Positions 51,930 through 63,891 of a stretch of 64,000 nt of DNA are shown here, piece by piece. Below the pieces are notes generated by a model, which had not been told where the DNA came from, did no database searches, and saw only the letters and a list, made by a program, of their open reading frames with translations. Numbering within the stretch: position 1 is the stretch's first letter; each line of letters begins with the position of its first letter. The translations under genes were made by a program, and so were the position numbers. This stretch comes from Shigella phage B2, in the sequence record OM858838; one strand, given 5' to 3'.

Positions 51930-52103
51930 AGTTACTCCGAAGGGGTTTACAAATAGATTATCAGTACTATATAGTACTTTTCACAGAAAGTAGAAGATTC
52001 TTAAGTGAGAGGTGTATTAGAACGTAACGGACTCATTATCCAATCTACGTTCAGTTGTTAAGATTGCAGTCTTAATAACATTTGATGATACATCTCTCTC
52101 TTA

Positions 52104-52126
52104 AGCACCTTCGGTGCTCTCTTTGG
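52104..52126 (+). promoter_or_regulatory. TTC-triloop hairpin (agcacc-TTC-ggtgct) followed by CTCTTTGG, upstream of tRNA cluster
   Basis: 6-bp stem, 3-nt loop; third copy of hairpin plus TTTGG architecture. Confidence 0.4.
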
Positions 52127-52134
52127 AAAGTTTT

Positions 52135-52209
52135 GGTTCTATGGTCCAGTGGAAAGGATATTCCCCTGTCACGGGAAAGGCCCGAGTTCAATTCTCGGTA
52201 GAACCGCCA
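52135..52209 (+). tRNA. tRNA-Asp (anticodon GTC), CCA encoded
   Basis: hand-folded cloverleaf: acceptor ggttcta/tagaacc, anticodon loop CTGTCAC, T-arm ccgag-TTCAATT-ctcgg. Confidence 0.8.
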
Positions 52210-52213
52210 ATTA

Positions 52214-52288
52214 CAGGATATAGCTCAAGTTGGTTAGAGCACTCGGCTCATAACCGAGAGTGTCCAGGTTCGAAACCGGGTGGAACCA
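52214..52288 (+). tRNA. tRNA-like, anticodon CAT (Met or Ile2); acceptor stem does not pair by hand-folding, possible pseudo-tRNA
   Basis: canonical D-arm tagctcaagttggttagagca and anticodon arm ctcgg-CTCATAA-ccgag, T-loop TTCGAAA. Confidence 0.4.
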
Positions 52289-52298
52289 CCAAATAATG

Positions 52299-52383
52299 AA
52301 GAGAGTCGTATAGCGGCCCAATACGCCACCCGAACGTTACGACTAGTACGGAGAACACGCAGGTTCGAATCCTGCCTCTCTTC
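52299..52383 (+). tRNA. type II tRNA-like element, anticodon unresolved
   Basis: acceptor aagagag/ctctctt, perfect T-arm gcagg-TTCGAAT-cctgc, 85 nt; anticodon arm not foldable by eye. Confidence 0.35.
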
Positions 52384-52389
52384 ACAAAT

Positions 52390-52463
52390 TGTCTCATAGC
52401 TCAGTAGGTCAGAGCGTTCCCCTGATAAGGGAAAGGTCACTAGTTCGATTCCAATTGAGACAA
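52390..52463 (+). tRNA. tRNA-Ile (anticodon GAT)
   Basis: acceptor tgtctca/tgagaca, D-arm, anticodon loop CTGATAA; T-stem has two mismatches. Confidence 0.55.
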
Positions 52464-52605
52464 CCATCCAATAGATTACAGTTCGTATCTCTTAGGGGAA
52501 TACACTTGTAATTGCGGCCCGATAGGAAAGGGTAATTTCTCGACGATGGGAGTAGACCATTGACTGTTTGGAATAGACAACTGACGCTGTGAACGAGAAC
52601 AGGAA

Positions 52606-52692
52606 CAAGATGAGTCGTATAATAGGCAAATACAATATTCATGTTTCGCTATAGGCATGGAGAAGGAACGTGAGTTCGAGTCTCACCTCATC
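52606..52692 (+). tRNA. type II tRNA-like element, anticodon unresolved (paralogue of 52299 element)
   Basis: acceptor agatgag/ctcatca, T-arm gtgag-TTCGAGT-ctcac; shares 5' tcgtat…atac D-arm with 52299 element. Confidence 0.35.
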
Positions 52693-52794
52693 AATAGTTC
52701 TTATCAGGGATTACTTACTACTATATATCATACATTACCTCGCCTGGTGTGTTGGTGTTACCTCGGTAGATAAGTAATCCACTAATAAGAATTT

Positions 52795-52880
52795 GGAAGA
52801 TTCCGCTCAGTGGTGGGCAATCCGGTTTGAACCCGGAGGTGCTGGTAACGGTAGGGGTTCGACTCCTCAATCTTCCGCCA
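52795..52880 (+). tRNA. tRNA-Ser (anticodon TGA), type II, CCA encoded
   Basis: acceptor ggaagat/atcttcc, anticodon arm tccgg-TTTGAAC-ccgga, long variable arm, T-loop TTCGACT. Confidence 0.75.
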
Positions 52881-52886
52881 ATATTT

Positions 52887-52962
52887 GATAGGATAGCTAA
52901 CTCGGTAAAGCGGCAGACTGTTAATCTGCGACATTAGGGTTCAAATCCCTATCCCATCGCCA
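52887..52962 (+). tRNA. tRNA-Asn (anticodon GTT), CCA encoded
   Basis: anticodon arm gcaga-CTGTTAA-tctgc, T-arm taggg-TTCAAAT-cccta. Confidence 0.8.
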
Positions 52963-53127
52963 AACTTGCAGGTAACTCTGCAATCCGTGACCAGTCGGTA
53001 TGTTTATTAGTATGTAAAAGGCTGGGCTTCCTGCCTCTCATAGCCATACTCTTAAATGAATAACTGGTAGTCCAGCCAAGCGCACGAAGATGGGGACCCT
53101 CACCATCGGACAAAACGAGGGTACTAA

Positions 53128-53204
53128 GCATCCTTAGCTCAGTTGGATAGAGCAGTAGCCTTCTAAGCTATTGGTCACTGGTTCGAATCCAGTAGGGTGT
53201 ACCA
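53128..53204 (+). tRNA. tRNA-Arg (anticodon TCT), CCA encoded
   Basis: D-arm gctcagttggatagagc, anticodon loop CTTCTAA, T-arm actgg-TTCGAAT-ccagt. Confidence 0.8.
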
Positions 53205-53205
53205 A

Positions 53206-53281
53206 GCTCACTAAGTTCATATGGGTGAACGCCTGCCTTGTAAGCAGGATGAACGCGGTTCGATTCCGTGGGTGAGCACCA
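53206..53281 (+). tRNA. tRNA-Thr (anticodon TGT), CCA encoded
   Basis: acceptor gctcact/ggtgagc, anticodon arm cctgc-CTTGTAA-gcagg, T-loop TTCGATT. Confidence 0.8.
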
Positions 53282-53283
53282 AT

Positions 53284-53369
53284 GGGAGTATGGTGAAATC
53301 GGTAGACACAAGGGATTTAAAATCCCTCGGCTTATAGCTGTACGAGTTCGAGTCTCGTTACTCCCACCA
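53284..53369 (+). tRNA. tRNA-Leu (anticodon TAA), type II, CCA encoded
   Basis: acceptor gggagta/tactccc, anticodon arm aggga-TTTAAAA-tccct, long variable arm, T-arm acgag-TTCGAGT-ctcgt. Confidence 0.75.
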
Positions 53370-54364: not shown

Positions 54365-54992
54365 TAAACTCAGATTGTCGTTTTACTACGACGATTGGGA
54401 TAGCAAGCTGGCTCTGCTTAAACCAGCGCATAGTAATGAGAGCATTTGCAGGGGCGATGGATTGATGTTATTTAACCATGCGTGTAAGTGTTCTCTTTAC
54501 TATGCTGCCATAGTAACCCGAAGATTGCTTTCCTTAGAGGAAGCAGAGTTTAAACAGGTATATCCTGTCCTGTATTGAAGGTGTAACAACTGAATATACC
54601 AGAGTACTAGAACTCTGTTACCGAACTCAGGGAGTTGCTGGCCTAACCAGCTTAACATCCTATCAATGAGTACACTTGATTGAGGTCAGAAGATGAAATG
54701 AAGCTTCTGTAAAATGAATCCACAGAGTGTACTCTTTGATAGTTTTCGTATGCGATTATGCGGTTTTTTAAAAACGAACCATAAAACATAAATGCAAACG
54801 ATGATGTTGTTCTGATGGCGGCTTAACAGCCTATAAATCAGTGAGGTATTCCAGTTCCTCATAACAGAATCTGGCGCACTGGCCCGGTGTGATTAATAAT
54901 GGGCAACCAATATCTCTTTAAGTGTATTGAATCAGTATATTTACAGAGATACGCGCCAAGTATATCTCACTTCCGAATACGTTGATTATTTT

Positions 54993-55019
54993 GCCCATCT
55001 CCCTTGATGGGCTTTTTTT
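54993..55019 (+). terminator. intrinsic terminator at start of early region
   Basis: stem gcccatc/gatgggc with T7 run. Confidence 0.55.
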
Positions 55020-55113
55020 ATCCCAATCCCCGCCTTACGCTTATGCGCTTCCATCGCTCACTACGTTCGCTCGGAGCGCTTCGCTTCAGGCTAGTCGTAG
55101 GAGACTCTTAAGA

Positions 55114-56376
55114 ATGTCTACCCCTTGTGAAAGATTAGGTTATAAAGAAGGAATGCAGTTCACTCTCGTCAACGATGATGTTGATGGATTGAGTGCTGGT
55201 GATACCCTCTGGCTTCATAGTGATGATGGTTCACATAATCCTGAATTCCGTGATACTGAAAAAGTAAACGATGATACTGAAACCTACTACATCGATTTAA
55301 ACTGTGTAGCTCGTTGTACCGAAGATGAAACACTCGCCTATAACCGTGGCTTAAGAGAAGGAGATATCCTTCAGATGGTTATGGATGATGATGGTGAGGA
55401 AGCCTATGAAGGCGATATCATCACATTCATCAAAGATGATGGAGATACCTGTCCTCAATTTGAAGTACAGAAGGATGGTAATAAGGCTTACCTGTACCTC
55501 TCTCATGTAGGTGGATTAGAACCTAAAGTAGGTCGTAAGGTTCGTGTAATCCATAACTGTACTGGTGGGTTCTCTTCAGGTACTGAAGGAACTATTGTTG
55601 ATATCTGTTCTGATGGGGACTATTTGATTGCAGCACGTGGAGATACCATGTATCACCATGCTGACTCCTGTATTGTCTTCGGCTATGCAGATGACGAATC
55701 CTCTGACAGTAAAGACCCTGAACCAGTAAAAGAAGATTACCCAACTAAACCTGCTTCTGAATGGAAACAAGGTGATAGAGGTATTGTTCGTGGTCAGCAA
55801 GATAATGACCCACATAACTTCCAGATTGGTGAAGAGATTACCTTTGAACGGGGAAGAGACTCAGAAAGAGGTATCTTCCGAGGTACTAAGTACACTTCTA
55901 CTCAAAACATTCAATATGATTTGATTGAAGTAGTCTCTATTGAACCGTACCCAATCACTGTTACTAAAGTATCCAAAGAGAATCCTGTAGCCTGTATCAA
56001 AGCTATACGTGCTGCTACTGGGTTAGGTTTGTATGAAGCTAAACAAGCTTATGACTTTGTTAGAGATAACGAAGAACCATACAGCTTACAGATAATCATC
56101 TCTAAAGGTGAGTTAACTCATCTCTTTACTGAAGCAGGTATCGAATACTTCTTTGATAGACAAACTGAAGTATCTGGAACCAAACCAACAGTAATCATCT
56201 GTGATGAGTTAGCTGATACTTCTAAGAAGTATAAATACTTCATTGATGGTGATTCCATTGAAGTAACATTAGTTGGATACTTCGAAGGTGAACCCATCTG
56301 TGCTTACAAAGACAGATGGGGTGATATTCAAACCTTCGTAGCTAAACAATCACTTCTGGTATCTGATGATGACTAA
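55114..56376 (+). CDS. early protein with acidic DDG-repeat N-terminal region and ribosomal protein L7/L12 C-terminal-domain-like segment
   Basis: VACIKAIRAATGLGLYEAKQAYDFV closely parallels the L7/L12 CTD core [29 protein letters not shown] SD before ATG 55114 (track ORF start 54982 rejected). Confidence 0.6.
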   Translation: MSTPCERLGYKEGMQFTLVNDDVDGLSAGDTLWLHSDDGSHNPEFRDTEKVNDDTETYYIDLNCVARCTEDETLAYNRGLREGDILQMVMDDDGEEAYEGDIITFIKDDGDTCPQFEVQKDGNKAYLYLSHVGGLEPKVGRKVRVIHNCTGGFSSGTEGTIVDICSDGDYLIAARGDTMYHHADSCIVFGYADDESSDSKDPEPVKEDYPTKPASEWKQGDRGIVRGQQDNDPHNFQIGEEITFERGRDSERGIFRGTKYTSTQNIQYDLIEVVSIEPYPITVTKVSKENPVACIKAIRAATGLGLYEAKQAYDFVRDNEEPYSLQIIISKGELTHLFTEAGIEYFFDRQTEVSGTKPTVIICDELADTSKKYKYFIDGDSIEVTLVGYFEGEPICAYKDRWGDIQTFVAKQSLLVSDDD

Positions 56377-58233: not shown

Positions 58234-58572
58234 ATGGGTAGAGCAAAAGAGAGAATTCACATGGCTATCATCCATTCAATCATTGGTTCTAATTCAGAAC
58301 CATCAACAGTAGTAGTCAACAAGTATAAGGAACCATACGATGTATATATCGGTAGAGGTAGTCTATGGGGAAATCCTTATACAGTTCAAGAACATGGCAG
58401 AGAACTATGCATTGCAATGTATGAGCAATACATACGTGCAAGACTACATCAAGAACCTGATTTATATCTTCAATTACTTGAGCTTAAAGGTAAGAAGCTA
58501 GGCTGCTTCTGTAAACCTAAACCATGTCATGGTGATGTATTAGTTAGACTCATCCAAGAGTACTCAAACTAA
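58234..58572 (+). CDS. hypothetical early protein (start may be ATG 58261)
   Basis: 112-aa ORF; Cys/His-containing C-terminal half. Confidence 0.5.
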   Translation: MGRAKERIHMAIIHSIIGSNSEPSTVVVNKYKEPYDVYIGRGSLWGNPYTVQEHGRELCIAMYEQYIRARLHQEPDLYLQLLELKGKKLGCFCKPKPCHGDVLVRLIQEYSN

Positions 58573-62058: not shown

Positions 62059-62562
62059 ATGTTAGAAGCTCGCGGTAATATGCTTGAAATGGAATGTGAT
62101 GCGTTGTGCATTACTACCAATGGATTTGTTAAAAGCAATGGTGCATCAGTTATGGGTGCTGGTATTGCAAAGCAGATGCGAGTAACTATTCCTGGACTGG
62201 ATAAAATTCTAGGTCAGAAGATTGCTCGTGAAGGTAACAATGTTCATTTCTTATTAAATTATAACAATATTGGAATTGTATCCTTCCCTGTTAAACCAAT
62301 AACAGAAATTAGTAATGGTGAGAACTTTGTTAAACATAAGTTCTTCCCTGTAGGTACAACAGTTCCGGGATGGGCATGTAAAGCAAACATCGATTTGATT
62401 GTACGTTCATGCCAGCAACTGGTAGCACTGGCTGACCAATATGGTTGGCAGAAAGTCTTATTACCAAGACCGGGATGTGGTGCTGGTGAGCTTAACTGGA
62501 GCCATGTGAAGAAGGTTATTGAACCTTTGTTAGATGACAGGTTTATCGTCTGCACCTATTGA
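62059..62562 (+). CDS. macro-domain-like protein (possible ADP-ribose binding/hydrolase)
   Basis: N-terminal …DALCITTNGFVKSNGASVMGAGIA… resembles macro-domain Gly-rich ADP-ribose pocket; GAGG SD. Confidence 0.5.
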   Translation: MLEARGNMLEMECDALCITTNGFVKSNGASVMGAGIAKQMRVTIPGLDKILGQKIAREGNNVHFLLNYNNIGIVSFPVKPITEISNGENFVKHKFFPVGTTVPGWACKANIDLIVRSCQQLVALADQYGWQKVLLPRPGCGAGELNWSHVKKVIEPLLDDRFIVCTY

Positions 62563-62773: not shown

Positions 62774-62996
62774 ATTAATTACCATTTTAAATGGAATATA
62801 TAATTTACCTGAACGCAAAGACTACGCTCCAAAAGAGTACATATGTGATTTAATCATATGTCCTGATGTACTTTGCAGTAATTGTCCAATGGGCAACCCA
62901 CATTATTTAAATCCTGACAAAGAATTATTTGTCACTCAAATCCATAAAACATTGGAAGTCATGAACCATGAAACAAGAAACTCAACTCCTGATTGA
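62766..62996 (+). CDS. Cys-motif mini-protein family member 8
   Basis: MDKLITILNGIY…C…C.NC. Confidence 0.5.
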   Translation: MDKLITILNGIYNLPERKDYAPKEYICDLIICPDVLCSNCPMGNPHYLNPDKELFVTQIHKTLEVMNHETRNSTPD

Positions 62997-63891
62997 ATCT
63001 ATGTTCAACCGTCACCAATCTCGTGACCTAATTAGAAATGAAATTAGAACTTCACCTGAAGTTATGGAGTTAGTTAGTGCTGCTGTAGATAAAGCACTGG
63101 AATGGGTAGAAGGTGATTACTTTGAAAGTAAGAACAAACGTCTGGCATTATTGGATACCAATATCCTAGAAGACTTCTACATTGATGTTGCTGGTTCATT
63201 GGCTCAATTTGGTAAGGCTAAGTATACCCAGATAGTAGGTATGGTATCTGGAATGATTTCTACTATGCCTCAGAAAGAGGCTATAAGGACTGCTGGAGAG
63301 CTTATCTCATTAGCAGCTATGGTAGACCTCATTGACCTGATTCCAGCCTCTATGAGCGTTACAGGCTCTATGGAACTGGTATCCCGTATACAGCTTGAAC
63401 CAAAGACATTGGAACTGATTAACCAGTATCAATATCTGCCTCCTATGCTTGTTCCCCCTGAACCAGTTAAATCAAATACTGGTAGTGGGTATCTGTCCAT
63501 CAAATGGGATTCCCTGATTCTGAAGAAGAATCATCATGAGTTTGATATCTGTTTGGATAATATCAACAGATTTAACTCAGTAGCTTTCTCTCTGGATGAC
63601 CGTGTAATCCGTAATATTAGGGATAACCGTAAACATCTGGATAGTGCTAAAGCTGATGAATCTGCTGATGAGTACAAAGCACGAGTTGATTCATTTCTGA
63701 AAATGGAAAAGGAATCTATGCGTGTATTTGCAATGCTCATCAATGAAGGGAACAGATTCTATCTGACTCACAAGTATGACAAACGAGGTCGTACTTACTG
63801 TCAGGGCTATCATGTCTCCTACCAAGGGAATACCTATCGTAAAGCTATTCTTGAATTAGCTGATAAAGAAATCGTACCCATTGAGGAATAA
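62968..63891 (+). CDS. T7-like RNA polymerase, N-terminal subunit of a split (two-gene) phage RNAP (N4 RNAP II-like)
   Basis: C-terminal YDKRGRTYCQGYHVSYQGN matches the T7 RNAP D.RGR.Y…QGND region; gene continues as a separate ORF. Confidence 0.65.
   Translation: MKQETQLLIESMFNRHQSRDLIRNEIRTSPEVMELVSAAVDKALEWVEGDYFESKNKRLALLDTNILEDFYIDVAGSLAQFGKAKYTQIVGMVSGMISTMPQKEAIRTAGELISLAAMVDLIDLIPASMSVTGSMELVSRIQLEPKTLELINQYQYLPPMLVPPEPVKSNTGSGYLSIKWDSLILKKNHHEFDICLDNINRFNSVAFSLDDRVIRNIRDNRKHLDSAKADESADEYKARVDSFLKMEKESMRVFAMLINEGNRFYLTHKYDKRGRTYCQGYHVSYQGNTYRKAILELADKEIVPIEE

What the first reader, a model, noticed from the sequence alone, without database searches (positions are those of the whole stretch)
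52135..53369. tRNA cluster with irregular members and unexplained spacers
Six tRNAs fold cleanly (Asp-GTC, Ser-TGA, Asn-GTT, Arg-TCT, Thr-TGT, Leu-TAA) and a seventh (Ile-GAT) is probable. A CAT-anticodon tRNA-like element (52214-52288) has good D and anticodon arms but no pairing acceptor stem, and two 85-87-nt elements (52299-52383, 52606-52692) have perfect acceptor and T-arms but no anticodon arm I can fold. Two spacers of about 140 and 160 nt (52466-52605, 52963-53127) are unassigned. The irregular elements could be degenerate tRNAs, unusual tRNAs or other small RNAs.
Basis: seen in the sequence. Interest (0 to 1): 0.45.

Follow-up and report, generated by a model that had tools for sequence, protein, structure and literature searches.

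The report
Phage tRNA cluster with tRNA-shaped RNAs
This tRNA gene cluster of an N4-like Salmonella phage holds seven real tRNAs, one tRNA wrecked by a deletion, two conserved tRNA-shaped RNAs that have a variable hairpin where the anticodon arm should be, and "spacers" that are really conserved folded RNAs of unknown function.

Summary
The window is an N4-like Salmonella phage (genus Ithacavirus). ARAGORN and Rfam confirm seven tRNAs. Ile-GAT has two T-stem mismatches because it is a Salmonella-type/Klebsiella-type mosaic. The CAT element is a deletion chimera: the 5' acceptor strand of tRNA-Pro is joined at the shared TAGCTCA box to the body of tRNA-Met. About 526 bp still present in phage UTK0001 are missing, so it is a pseudo-tRNA. 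The two 85-87-nt elements belong to one conserved family of tRNA-like RNAs (TL). They have acceptor, class II-type D-arm and T-arm with strong covariation (12 of 20 pairs compensatory), no encoded CCA, and a variable hairpin in place of the anticodon arm. The hairpin apex evolves faster than everything around it. The spacers are not filler. The 165-nt one (sp3) is a structured RNA (45 pairs, 14 compensatory) that always abuts tRNA-Arg. The 140-nt one (sp1) is a row of five hairpins that always precedes a TL. None has an Rfam family. Function is inferred only; the closest known analogues are the T4 stable RNAs rnaC and rnaD. Moderately interesting: a new variant of a known kind.

The parts
51946..51975 (+). 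Sigma-70-like promoter candidate (TTTACA, 18 nt, TATAGT) upstream of the cluster
   Evidence: Consensus scan gives 10 of 12 matches. Both hexamers are conserved in Ithacavirus, Pylasvirus and TR2-type phages. Promoter use is inferred, not shown.
52104..52129 (+). Small hairpin (AGCACC-TTC-GGTGCT) followed by the invariant TCTTTGGAAA, just before tRNA-Asp; role unknown
   Evidence: The stem covaries with the TR2 type (GCCCC-TGC-GGGGC) and the downstream block is invariant. [quoted passage not shown]
52135..52209 (+). tRNA-Asp (GTC), CCA encoded
   Evidence: ARAGORN; Rfam 64.8 bits.
52214..52291 (+). Pseudo-tRNA, a deletion chimera. 52214-52220 is the 5' acceptor strand of tRNA-Pro(TGG), 52221-52227 is the shared TAGCTCA crossover box, and 52228-52291 is the body of tRNA-Met(CAT) with ACCA
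   Evidence: Direct comparison with UTK0001 (L004), which reads Asp-ATTA-Pro(CAGGATATAGCTCAGC...), and with intact Met (GGTTCCATAGCTCAAG...) in four relatives. Rfam 37.7 bits with acceptor mismatches.
   Evidence: Model R1 84.7 bits against 40 or less for real tRNAs. Rfam tRNA 34.5 bits with the anticodon arm skipped. Present in S5, SP154 and UTK0001, and precisely absent from UTK0002 and As2 between CAAAT repeats.
52390..52466 (+). tRNA-Ile (GAT) with two T-stem mismatches (C-A and A-C), caused by a Klebsiella-phage-type T-loop and 3' strand patch
   Evidence: ARAGORN; Rfam 62.4 bits with two flagged pairs; comparison with the Salmonella-type and Klebsiella-type Ile genes.
   Evidence: 96-100% identical in Ithacavirus and recognisable in Pylasvirus and TR2. 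Same hairpin layout in five lineages. Compensatory changes in H5 and H2, and full sequence turnover with the hairpin retained in H1.
   Evidence: Model R1 86.2 bits. Rfam tRNA 31.8 bits with the anticodon arm skipped. Orthologues occur in all Ithacavirus relatives, KpCHEMY26, MY01, TR2 and four metagenomic contigs.
52693..52794 (+). sp2: a long imperfect hairpin that exactly fills the gap between TL-2 and tRNA-Ser; a candidate double-strand-specific RNase (RNase III) site
   Evidence: MFE -36.1 kcal/mol, z = -6.6. Equivalent hairpins in S5 (z -9.4), KpCHEMY26 (-5.5) and TR2 (-3.2) despite different sequences. Matches its own reverse complement in nhmmer. The window version is 81% identical to the Klebsiella-phage version, not the Salmonella one.
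52795..52880 (+). tRNA-Ser (TGA), class II, CCA encoded
   Evidence: ARAGORN. Identical in S5 and UTK0002. Rfam's tRNA model does not reach threshold.
52887..52962 (+). tRNA-Asn (GTT)
   Evidence: ARAGORN; Rfam 58.8 bits.
   Evidence: RNAalifold gives 45 pairs, 14 with compensatory changes. 98.7% of cells are paired against 38-43% when partners are slid, and 0 of 500 shuffles reach the covariation score. Model R2 finds exactly one copy per phage at 154-186 bits, always next to Arg-TCT. The minus-strand ORF is not conserved.
53128..53204 (+). tRNA-Arg (TCT)
   Evidence: ARAGORN; Rfam 68.7 bits.
53206..53281 (+). tRNA-Thr (TGT)
   Evidence: ARAGORN; Rfam 49.7 bits.
53284..53369 (+). tRNA-Leu (TAA), class II
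   Evidence: ARAGORN; Rfam 59.3 bits.

Best explanation
The region is a mosaic, recombination-prone tRNA operon of an N4-like Salmonella phage. It is probably transcribed rightwards from a conserved sigma-70-like promoter as one precursor, which host tRNA-processing enzymes then cut up. It contains four kinds of thing. (1) Seven decoding tRNAs, one of them (Ile) weakened by a foreign sequence patch. (2) One dead tRNA, made when recombination between the TAGCTCA boxes of tRNA-Pro and tRNA-Met deleted about 526 bp. This fused Pro's 5' acceptor strand to Met's body, so no acceptor stem can form. (3) Two copies of a conserved tRNA-like RNA (TL). It keeps the acceptor/T-arm helix, the D-arm and the elbow contacts, but carries a variable hairpin where the anticodon arm should be and has no encoded CCA. 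It works like a natural 'tRNA scaffold': the tRNA-shaped part should make it a substrate for RNase P and the 3' processing enzymes and make it stable, while the fast-changing hairpin is the displayed, functional or targeted part. It cannot decode. (4) Structured non-coding RNAs between the tRNAs (sp1, sp2, sp3), whose ends would be defined by processing of the neighbouring tRNA or TL, as for the T4 stable RNAs. Shown: sequence, conservation, covariation, the chimera junction and absence from Rfam. Inferred: transcription, processing, stability and any cellular role. The confidence given applies to this structural and evolutionary account (what each element is). The scaffold-and-processing mechanism on its own I would put near 0.5.
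For: Identity of the phage and synteny. Seven tRNAs. Chimera: the window reads Asp-ATTA-CAGGATA-TAGCTCA-AGTTGG..., while UTK0001 reads Asp-ATTA-CAGGATA-TAGCTCA-GCTTGG (Pro) and has intact Met 526 bp further on; the 185 nt upstream are 100% identical between the two phages. Ile mosaic. Other recombination scars in relatives (Arg 3' fragment, split Pro). TL family: 96.9% of cells paired against 33-49% when slid, 12 of 20 pairs with compensatory change, and 0 of 500 shuffles reaching the score. TLs score 80-97 bits with model R1 while every genuine tRNA scores 40 or less. Rfam's tRNA model aligns everything except the anticodon arm. The D-arm is most like the phages' own Tyr and Ser class II tRNAs. 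None of the TLs is followed by CCA, while all seven tRNAs and the chimera are. In the three Klebsiella-phage TLs all 3-4 differences per pair lie in positions 40-47 of 90, with 97-100% identity in the 95 nt downstream. sp3. sp2. sp1; it occurs in every locus that has the TL-2 orthologue and in none that lacks it. Promoter. Analogy: T4 rnaC has a canonical T-arm beside a terminal helix and lies in the T4 tRNA cluster.
Against: There is no expression, processing or stability data for any of these RNAs. The alignments hold only 8-10 distinct sequences from about three lineages, so many compensatory 'cells' are inherited from few events. The shuffle control can be exceeded by related sequences alone, although the slide control is also clean. 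The fast-changing hairpin apex could simply be unconstrained rather than functional. sp1's helices H3 and H4 never vary, so for them sequence recognition at the DNA level, for example an internal promoter, is not excluded. TL-2 in the window has an A-A first acceptor pair, which could reduce processing. The scaffold idea does not say what the hairpin does.
Confidence: 0.65

Rival explanations
1. The TLs are decoys or sponges against host tRNA-targeting immunity. A tRNA-shaped body with a class II-like D-arm attracts a nuclease or sensor that recognises tRNA shape, such as Septu or retron PtuAB, which cut the variable arm of tRNA-Tyr. The hairpin is the bait and changes in an arms race.
For: The TL D-arm is closest to the phages' Tyr and Ser class II tRNAs, and the length is class II-like. 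Differences between near-identical TLs are confined to the hairpin apex. The window and S5 versions of TL-2 differ almost only in the hairpin, with pairing kept or improved. Published work shows Septu and retron-Eco7 cut the tRNA-Tyr variable arm, and that phage tRNAs act as a 'decoy or supplement' (PMC13096335; PMC10264068, listed).
Against: There is no direct evidence. The hairpin sits nearer the anticodon-arm position than the variable-arm position. The loops share no motif with the known cleavage site. The window phage has lost its own tRNA-Tyr without obvious compensation. This reading is a special case of the scaffold explanation rather than a true alternative.
Confidence: 0.12
2. The TLs are only processing punctuation. 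They are former class II tRNAs that lost decoding and are kept solely so that RNase P and 3' processing enzymes cut the precursor there, which releases the functional sp1 and sp2 RNAs. The hairpin is neutral filler.
For: sp1 and the TL-2 orthologue always occur together, and sp2 exactly fills the gap to the next tRNA. sp3 likewise always abuts tRNA-Arg. The hairpin sequence is free to vary.
Against: TL-1 stands alone between Met and Ile with no sp1 or sp2 and is still conserved in four phages. The central hairpin is kept as a hairpin by compensatory changes, for example CC/GG to TT/GA between S5 and the window, which neutral filler would not require. The D-arm and elbow contacts are conserved although RNase P needs only the acceptor/T minihelix.
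Confidence: 0.2
3. The TLs are unusual decoding or suppressor tRNAs, as existing annotations imply: 'tRNA-Leu-CTA' in KpCHEMY26, and ARAGORN's 'Tyr-ATA' in TR2 and L063.
For: The annotation and ARAGORN calls in relatives. The Rfam tRNA score is just above the gathering threshold.
Against: No member has a 5-bp stem with a 7-nt loop at the anticodon position. Loop sizes range from 4 to 12 nt. The supposed anticodon differs with every program and phage (ga, ca, gtac, ata, CTA). Position '33' is T, A or G when the sequences are aligned on CTA. None has CCA, unlike every real tRNA here.
Confidence: 0.03
4. The conserved spacers act at the DNA level (internal promoters, replication or packaging signals, or recombination hotspots) rather than as RNAs.
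For: The 40-nt block in sp1 (CATTGAC...AGACAACTGACGCTG) is invariant even in predicted loops and contains a TTGAC -35-like hexamer. The cluster is very recombinogenic.
Against: sp3 and the TLs show many compensatory changes that preserve pairing, including G-U pairs that are strand-specific. No good -10 element follows the TTGAC at 16-18 nt. The invariant block occurs once in the 64-kb window.
Confidence: 0.1

Closest known systems
Phage T4 stable RNAs rnaC (species 1) and rnaD (species 2) in the T4 tRNA cluster
   Same: They are small non-coding RNAs encoded among phage tRNA genes and next to tRNA-Arg. rnaC has a canonical T-arm (CCGGGUUCGAAUCCCGG) beside a terminal helix and no anticodon arm. 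The record gives them no function, describing them only as small, stable RNAs; that their function is still unknown is my recollection.
   Different: There is no detectable sequence homology: model R1 scores rnaC at only 18.8 bits and R2 finds nothing. rnaC is 139 nt and lacks a clean 7-bp acceptor stem and a D-arm, whereas the TLs are complete tRNA shapes apart from the anticodon arm. sp3 and sp1 have different folds from rnaD.
Engineered 'tRNA scaffold' for recombinant RNA expression (Ponchon and Dardel 2007; from my own knowledge, not checked here)
   Same: A tRNA whose anticodon arm is replaced by a cargo hairpin. It keeps the acceptor, D and T arms, so the cell processes it and leaves it stable.
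   Different: That is an artificial construct with CCA. The TLs are natural, lack encoded CCA, and have 4-5-nt and 8-10-nt linkers on either side of the hairpin.
Rfam RF00005 tRNA
   Same: Acceptor, D-arm, T-arm, U8, A14, the GG of the D-loop and the GTTCGAATC T-loop all align, with scores of 31.8 and 34.5 bits against a gathering score of 29.
   Different: The anticodon stem-loop is absent and is replaced by 18-25 unaligned bases. There is no CCA. The elements are missed with default filters and by ARAGORN at its default threshold.
Bacterial Y RNA-like YrlA (RF02553), which has a tRNA-like domain and occurs in Salmonella
   Same: A non-decoding RNA with tRNA-like T and D arms.
   Different: In YrlA the ends lie in the Ro-binding stem and the acceptor-like stem is closed, the reverse of the TL topology (my knowledge). 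Rfam scores only 17.3 bits, E = 2.1, across a T-arm. Not a member.
tmRNA tRNA-like domain, and the mascRNA/MALAT1-type tRNA-like 3' processing signals
   Same: tRNA mimicry without an anticodon; in mascRNA, RNase P cleavage at a tRNA-like element defines the end of the upstream RNA.
   Different: ARAGORN finds no tmRNA. The Rfam tmRNA hit is 18 nt of T-loop at 11.6 bits, and mascRNA scores 22.7 bits on the real tRNA-Asp. There is no tag reading frame or pseudoknot array.

Membership tests
Canonical decoding tRNA (for TL-1 and TL-2) | 7-bp acceptor stem, D-arm and T-arm with a GTTCRANYC loop | tested here: met
   Rfam alignment; covariation count. TL-2 in the window has an A-A first pair.
Canonical decoding tRNA (for TL-1 and TL-2) | 5-bp anticodon stem with a 7-nt loop, U33 and a purine at 37 | tested here: not met
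   The model's 13 anticodon positions are skipped. Loops are 4-12 nt, and programs disagree on every 'anticodon'.
Canonical decoding tRNA (for TL-1 and TL-2) | 3' CCA, which is encoded in every genuine tRNA of this cluster | tested here: not met
   After the acceptor the TLs read CACA, AATA, AAAA, TTAA, TAGG and TAAT. All seven tRNAs and the chimera end in CCA. Post-transcriptional addition is not testable here.
Canonical decoding tRNA (for the CAT element 52214-52291) | A pairing acceptor stem | tested here: not met
   CAGGATA against TGGAACC gives one Watson-Crick pair and one wobble out of seven. Relatives have GGTTCCA/TGGAACC.
Canonical decoding tRNA (for Ile-GAT 52390-52466) | All four arms, a 7-nt anticodon loop and CCA | tested here: met
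   ARAGORN, and Rfam at 62.4 bits. Two T-stem mismatches remain, so activity may be reduced; that is not testable here.
TL family defined here (model R1) | R1 score far above genuine tRNAs; class II-type D-arm; central hairpin flanked by an N-Y-A-Y linker and a purine-rich linker; no CCA | tested here: met
   Both window elements score 84.7 and 86.2 bits against 40 or less for tRNAs. Both were in the seed alignment, so their scores are partly by construction. Independent members L186 and L182 score 96.8 and 91.2 bits.
Structured non-coding RNA (for sp3) | Base pairs maintained by compensatory substitutions beyond controls, and not explained by coding | tested here: met
   14 of 45 pairs are compensatory, 98.7% of cells are paired, and slid controls give 1-3 pairs. 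The ORF on the opposite strand is broken in relatives.
Structured non-coding RNA (for sp1) | Base pairs maintained by compensatory substitutions | tested here: inconclusive
   H5 has two compensatory changes and H2 has one. H1 is retained as a hairpin despite sequence turnover. H3 and H4 are invariant. The RNAalifold covariation term on the raw alignment was +0.7.
T4 rnaC/rnaD-type stable RNAs | Accumulate as discrete stable RNAs processed from the tRNA precursor | not testable with these tools
   This needs RNA from infected cells. Only the genomic analogy was examined.
N4 virion RNA polymerase promoter (for the hairpin 52104-52118) | 5-7-bp stem and 3-nt loop with -11G and -10G on the template strand, located at the left genome end | tested here: not met
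   The stem and 3-nt loop are present, but the template-strand loop is GAA (GCA in the TR2 type), and the element lies at the right-end tRNA region (PMC4496689).

The most novel reading that the evidence does not exclude
The TLs are a natural tRNA-scaffold system. The phage uses a tRNA-shaped chassis, without anticodon or CCA, to display a rapidly diversifying hairpin that acts as bait or inhibitor for host tRNA-directed immunity nucleases or sensors. The co-inherited sp1 and sp3 RNAs would be further anti-host small RNAs matured by the tRNA-processing machinery. This would be an RNA-based anti-defence module hidden in what annotators call tRNA clusters.
Probability: 0.12. Interest if true: 0.8.

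Novelty: new variant of a known kind. Interest (0 to 1): 0.5.

Why it matters
Phage tRNA clusters are usually read as lists of anticodons. Here about 45% of the cluster (roughly 570 of 1,235 nt) is conserved, structured, non-decoding RNA that no database names. Existing genome records either ignore these RNAs or mislabel them as suppressor-like tRNAs ('tRNA-Leu-CTA', 'Tyr-ATA'; a related case is 'tRNA-Pyl'). If the tRNA-shaped RNAs are stable in infected cells, they are a natural counterpart of the engineered tRNA scaffold. They would also be candidates for the RNA side of the conflict over tRNA-targeting defences, which is now an active topic. The work also gives a clean example of how recombination between conserved tRNA boxes creates and destroys phage tRNA genes, and two covariance models that can be used to annotate these families.

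Tried and rejected
1. tmRNA, intron-containing tRNA, selenocysteine or pyrrolysine tRNA for the irregular elements. ARAGORN's tmRNA and intron modes gave nothing credible. tRNA-Sec scored 30 bits, and only on the real Ser-TGA.

2. A known Rfam family for sp1, sp2 or sp3, including ribozymes and riboswitches. Nothing was found even at E = 10 on the isolated segments.

3. Small proteins in the spacers. Only short overlapping ORFs exist. The 60-aa minus-strand ORF across sp3 is frameshifted in relatives. The apparent mini-ORF MFISM in sp3 lies inside a conserved helix, so I did not pursue it.

4. Host-derived sequence or a host target. Neither sp1 nor sp3 matches 5,426 E. coli genomes.

5. An antisense target in the phage. 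The longest complementarity of the TL apexes, the sp3 apex and the sp1 block to the rest of the window is 10-11 nt, no better than shuffled queries. The invariant 15-mer occurs only once.

6. An N4 virion-polymerase promoter for the upstream hairpin. The loop determinants are absent.

7. A pseudoknot between the sp3 loop CCCUC and the downstream GAGGG. Four of the pairs never vary, and the fifth changes on both sides to A-A in the TR2 type, so there is no support for it.

8. Paralogy between sp1 and sp3. R2 finds no second copy.

9. Wider distribution. blastn finds sp3 in 16 phage records and the Ile-to-Ser interval (sp1, TL-2, sp2) in 14. Pattern scans of IMG/VR and the metagenomes added six contigs of the same phage group. 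One scan of IMG/VR and the only genome-contig scan were wasted on a pattern with one N too many, so absence from bacterial genomes was not properly tested.

10. Literature searches found no description of these elements.
Full report
**What the window is.** The region matches the tRNA cluster of N4-like Salmonella podophages of the genus Ithacavirus (S5, SP154, UTK0001, UTK0002, As2, FSL SP-058, FSL SP-076) at 90-94% identity. It matches Klebsiella Pylasvirus phages and Salmonella phage TR2 more distantly. The cluster lies between the divergently transcribed N4 gp68/gp69-like genes (terminase) and a run of small rightward ORFs. An N4-type RNA polymerase subunit is encoded at 62968-63891. No tRNA-processing or RNA-repair enzyme is encoded nearby.

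**Checking the observation.**
- Rfam's tRNA model confirms six of them and adds the CAT element at 37.7 bits with a non-pairing acceptor stem. It misses Ser-TGA.
- Relaxed ARAGORN reports the two 85-87-nt elements only as 'tRNA-???' with two-base 'anticodons'.
- On the isolated segments, Rfam's tRNA model reaches 34.5 and 31.8 bits (gathering score 29). It aligns the acceptor, D-arm and T-arm but skips the anticodon stem-loop, leaving 25 and 18 unaligned bases in place of 13 model positions.

The description is therefore accurate. The only corrections are that element 2 starts at 52608, and that a third unassigned stretch (52693-52794) was not listed.

**The CAT element is a deletion chimera.** In four relatives the Met(CAT) tRNA has a perfect acceptor stem, GGTTCCA/TGGAACC. 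In the window the 5' strand reads CAGGATA. Phage UTK0001 reads Asp-ATTA-CAGGATA-TAGCTCA-GCTTGG..., which is tRNA-Pro(TGG). It is followed by Tyr, Ser-GCT and Gln, and by an intact Met 526 bp further on. The window reads Asp-ATTA-CAGGATA-TAGCTCA-AGTTGG..., and continues as Met from there.

So recombination within the shared U8-A14 box TAGCTCA (52221-52227) deleted the rest of Pro, plus Tyr, Ser-GCT, Gln and the first seven bases of Met. The 185 nt upstream are 100% identical to UTK0001, which fits that ancestry. The product cannot form an acceptor stem and should be inactive.

Similar scars occur in relatives: a 32-nt duplicate of the Arg 3' end in UTK0001, and a tRNA-Pro split by an HNH-endonuclease ORF in KpCHEMY26.

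**Ile-GAT.** Its T-stem has C-A and A-C mismatches. The 5' strand (ACTAG) is the Salmonella-phage version, while the T-loop and 3' strand (TTCGATT-CCAAT) are the Klebsiella-phage version. Each parental type pairs perfectly. It is still a tRNA by both programs (62.4 bits) but may be weakened.

**The two 85-87-nt elements are a conserved tRNA-like (TL) family.** Orthologues of element 2 occur in all Ithacavirus relatives, KpCHEMY26, MY01, TR2 and four metagenomic contigs. Element 1 occurs in S5, SP154 and UTK0001, and is precisely absent from UTK0002 and As2 between CAAAT direct repeats.

On an alignment of eight distinct sequences:
- The acceptor, D-stem, T-stem and the core of a central hairpin are paired in 96.9% of cells, against 33-49% when partners are slid.
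- 12 of 20 pairs show compensatory change.
- No shuffle out of 500 reaches the covariation score.

A covariance model built from this alignment scores TLs at 80-97 bits and every genuine tRNA at 40 or less. That includes two members that were not in the seed alignment.

The TLs keep U8, A14, the GG of the D-loop, C48 and the GTTCGAATC T-loop, which are the contacts that build the tRNA elbow. The D-arm is of the class II type, closest to the phages' own Tyr and Ser tRNAs.

What is missing is the anticodon arm. After a four- to five-base linker comes a hairpin whose length (16-24 nt), loop (4-12 nt) and sequence differ from phage to phage, followed by a purine-rich 8-10-nt linker. No TL is followed by CCA, although all seven tRNAs and the chimera are.

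The 'anticodons' proposed by programs and annotators (ga, ca, gtac, ata, CTA) reflect this absence rather than any real anticodon.

**The hairpin apex evolves fastest.** In the three Klebsiella-phage TLs all differences (3-4 per pair) fall in positions 40-47 of 90. The remaining positions are identical, and the 95 nt downstream are 97-100% identical. Between S5 and the window, TL-2 differs almost only in the hairpin, and the changes keep or improve pairing: CC/GG becomes TT/GA, and two A-A mismatches become C-G and A-T. So the scaffold is held constant while the displayed hairpin varies but stays a hairpin.

**The spacers.**

*sp3 (52963-53127).* It is about 99% identical among most Ithacavirus relatives (88% in UTK0002), higher than the 90-94% identity across the cluster as a whole. 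It is 81-83% identical in Pylasvirus and 75% in TR2. RNAalifold predicts 45 pairs in nine helices, 14 with compensatory changes and almost none broken. In the controls, 98.7% of cells are paired against 38-43% when slid, and 14 compensatory pairs compare with 1-3. A model of it finds exactly one copy per phage, always ending where tRNA-Arg(TCT) begins, and none in Pollock or T4. A 60-aa ORF on the other strand is not conserved.

*sp1 (52467-52607).* It folds in every lineage into five successive hairpins.
- H1 keeps its shape despite complete sequence turnover.
- H5 shows two compensatory changes (CUGU/ACAG, CUGG/CCAG, CCGG/CCGG).
- H2 shows one compensatory change.
- H3 and H4, with the block AGACAACTGACGCTG, are invariant.

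sp1 and the TL-2 orthologue are present together or absent together.

*sp2 (52693-52794).* This is a long hairpin with z-scores of -6.6 in the window, -9.4 in S5, -5.5 in KpCHEMY26 and -3.2 in TR2. It is retained although the Salmonella relatives have a different sequence, and the window's version is the Klebsiella type. It exactly fills the gap between the TL and tRNA-Ser.

None of the three has an Rfam family, a match in E. coli genomes or a complementary target in the window.

**How it most likely works.** A sigma-70-like promoter (TTTACA, 18 nt, TATAGT; 51946-51975) is conserved in all three genera. In N4 the host polymerase is used for late transcription (PMC4496689). I infer one rightward precursor that RNase P and the 3' processing enzymes cut at each tRNA and at each TL. 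The long sp2 duplex would be a likely RNase III site.

On this view the TLs are natural tRNA scaffolds: the tRNA-shaped part gives processing and stability, and the hairpin is the working or targeted part. sp1, sp2 and sp3 are released as by-products with defined ends, as with the T4 stable RNAs. T4 rnaC does have a canonical T-arm beside a terminal helix and sits in the T4 tRNA cluster, but it shows no homology to the TLs.

All of this paragraph is inference. Nothing here shows that the RNAs accumulate.

**What the TLs might be for.** The two serious options are processing punctuation for sp1 and sp2, and a decoy for tRNA-directed host defences.
- Punctuation fits the strict sp1-TL linkage. 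It does not explain the solitary TL-1, nor the selection that keeps the hairpin paired.
- The decoy idea fits the class II-like body, the fast-changing apex and recent work. That work shows Septu and a retron system cutting the variable arm of tRNA-Tyr, with phage tRNAs acting as decoy or supplement (PMC13096335). It has no direct support here.

**Limits.** The families are known from about three lineages of one phage group, so the compensatory changes represent few independent events. One collection scan was lost to a mistyped pattern, so presence in bacterial genomes was not properly examined. The hairpin upstream of tRNA-Asp covaries, but it does not fit the published determinants of N4 virion-polymerase promoters and remains unexplained.

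**Verdict.** The cluster is more than a list of tRNAs. It holds one recombination-killed tRNA, one recombination-damaged tRNA, a new family of anticodon-less tRNA-shaped RNAs, and three conserved structured RNA modules that are in no database. This is a new variant of a known kind (phage tRNA-cluster stable RNAs), of moderate interest, with a small chance of being an RNA-based anti-defence device.

Noticed in passing
L006 2165-2240 (Klebsiella phage Pylas): The annotated 'tRNA-Pyl' (CTA), which may have given the phage its name, is the orthologue of Arg-TCT with a remodelled anticodon stem (GAGGA/CCCTC instead of GTAGC/GCTAT). The loop TTCTAA is kept, and the CTA reading is a one-base register choice by ARAGORN.
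   Followed up: partly
L005 2246-2682 (Klebsiella phage KpCHEMY26): A tRNA-Pro(TGG) gene is split after its anticodon arm by an insert of about 360 nt encoding an HNH-endonuclease-like ORF. MY01 has the intact tRNA-Pro at the same place. It could be a homing element or an intron; I did not test this.
   Followed up: no
L002 2837-2954 (Salmonella phage UTK0002): A 111-nt element with a 7-bp acceptor stem (GCCGAGT/ACTCGGC), a T-arm and a TCCA end but a non-tRNA body. It is a second, unrelated kind of tRNA-scaffolded RNA in the same cluster. Model R1 does not detect it.
   Followed up: no
L004 3264-3566 (Salmonella phage UTK0001): Between Arg and Leu lies a 303-nt insert that ends with a 32-nt exact duplicate of the Arg tRNA 3' end. 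It contains a small ORF with two similar repeats.
   Followed up: no
L063 9558-9644 and the equivalent in L077: A 28-codon Cys-rich ORF (MKVFTVRCPLTQCPYCGYWGKPCNCPNE) with a strong ribosome-binding site sits inside the tRNA cluster of TR2-like metagenomic phages.
   Followed up: no
window 52104-52129: Hairpin AGCACC-TTC-GGTGCT followed by the invariant TCTTTGGAAA, directly upstream of tRNA-Asp. The stem covaries with TR2-type phages, and the element does not fit N4 virion-polymerase promoter rules. Role unknown; a 5' stabiliser, attenuator or another polymerase's signal are possibilities.
   Followed up: partly
window 52693-52794 and 52441-52459: The window carries Klebsiella-phage-type sequence patches (sp2, and the Ile T-loop with its 3' T-stem strand) inside an otherwise Salmonella-phage-type cluster. 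This indicates recombination between phages of different host genera.
   Followed up: partly
window 53117-53135: The sp3 3' tail (AGGGU, or AGGAU in the TR2 type) could pair with the 5' acceptor strand of the adjacent tRNA-Arg (AUCCU). The G-to-A change in TR2-type phages would improve this pairing. It might couple sp3 folding to Arg processing, but it competes with the helix that RNAalifold predicts.
   Followed up: no
window 54982-56376, 58234-58572, 62059-62562: Downstream proteins of unknown role: a 464-aa protein with a short ribosomal L7/L12 C-terminal-like stretch, a DUF4326 protein, and a 167-aa protein with a weak Macro-domain hit that matches a PHROG family annotated 'phosphatase'.
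   Followed up: no
L008 (FSL SP-058, KC139517): The tRNA features in this GenBank record are displaced by about 1.1 kb from where ARAGORN finds the genes, so one is drawn inside a CDS.
   Followed up: no
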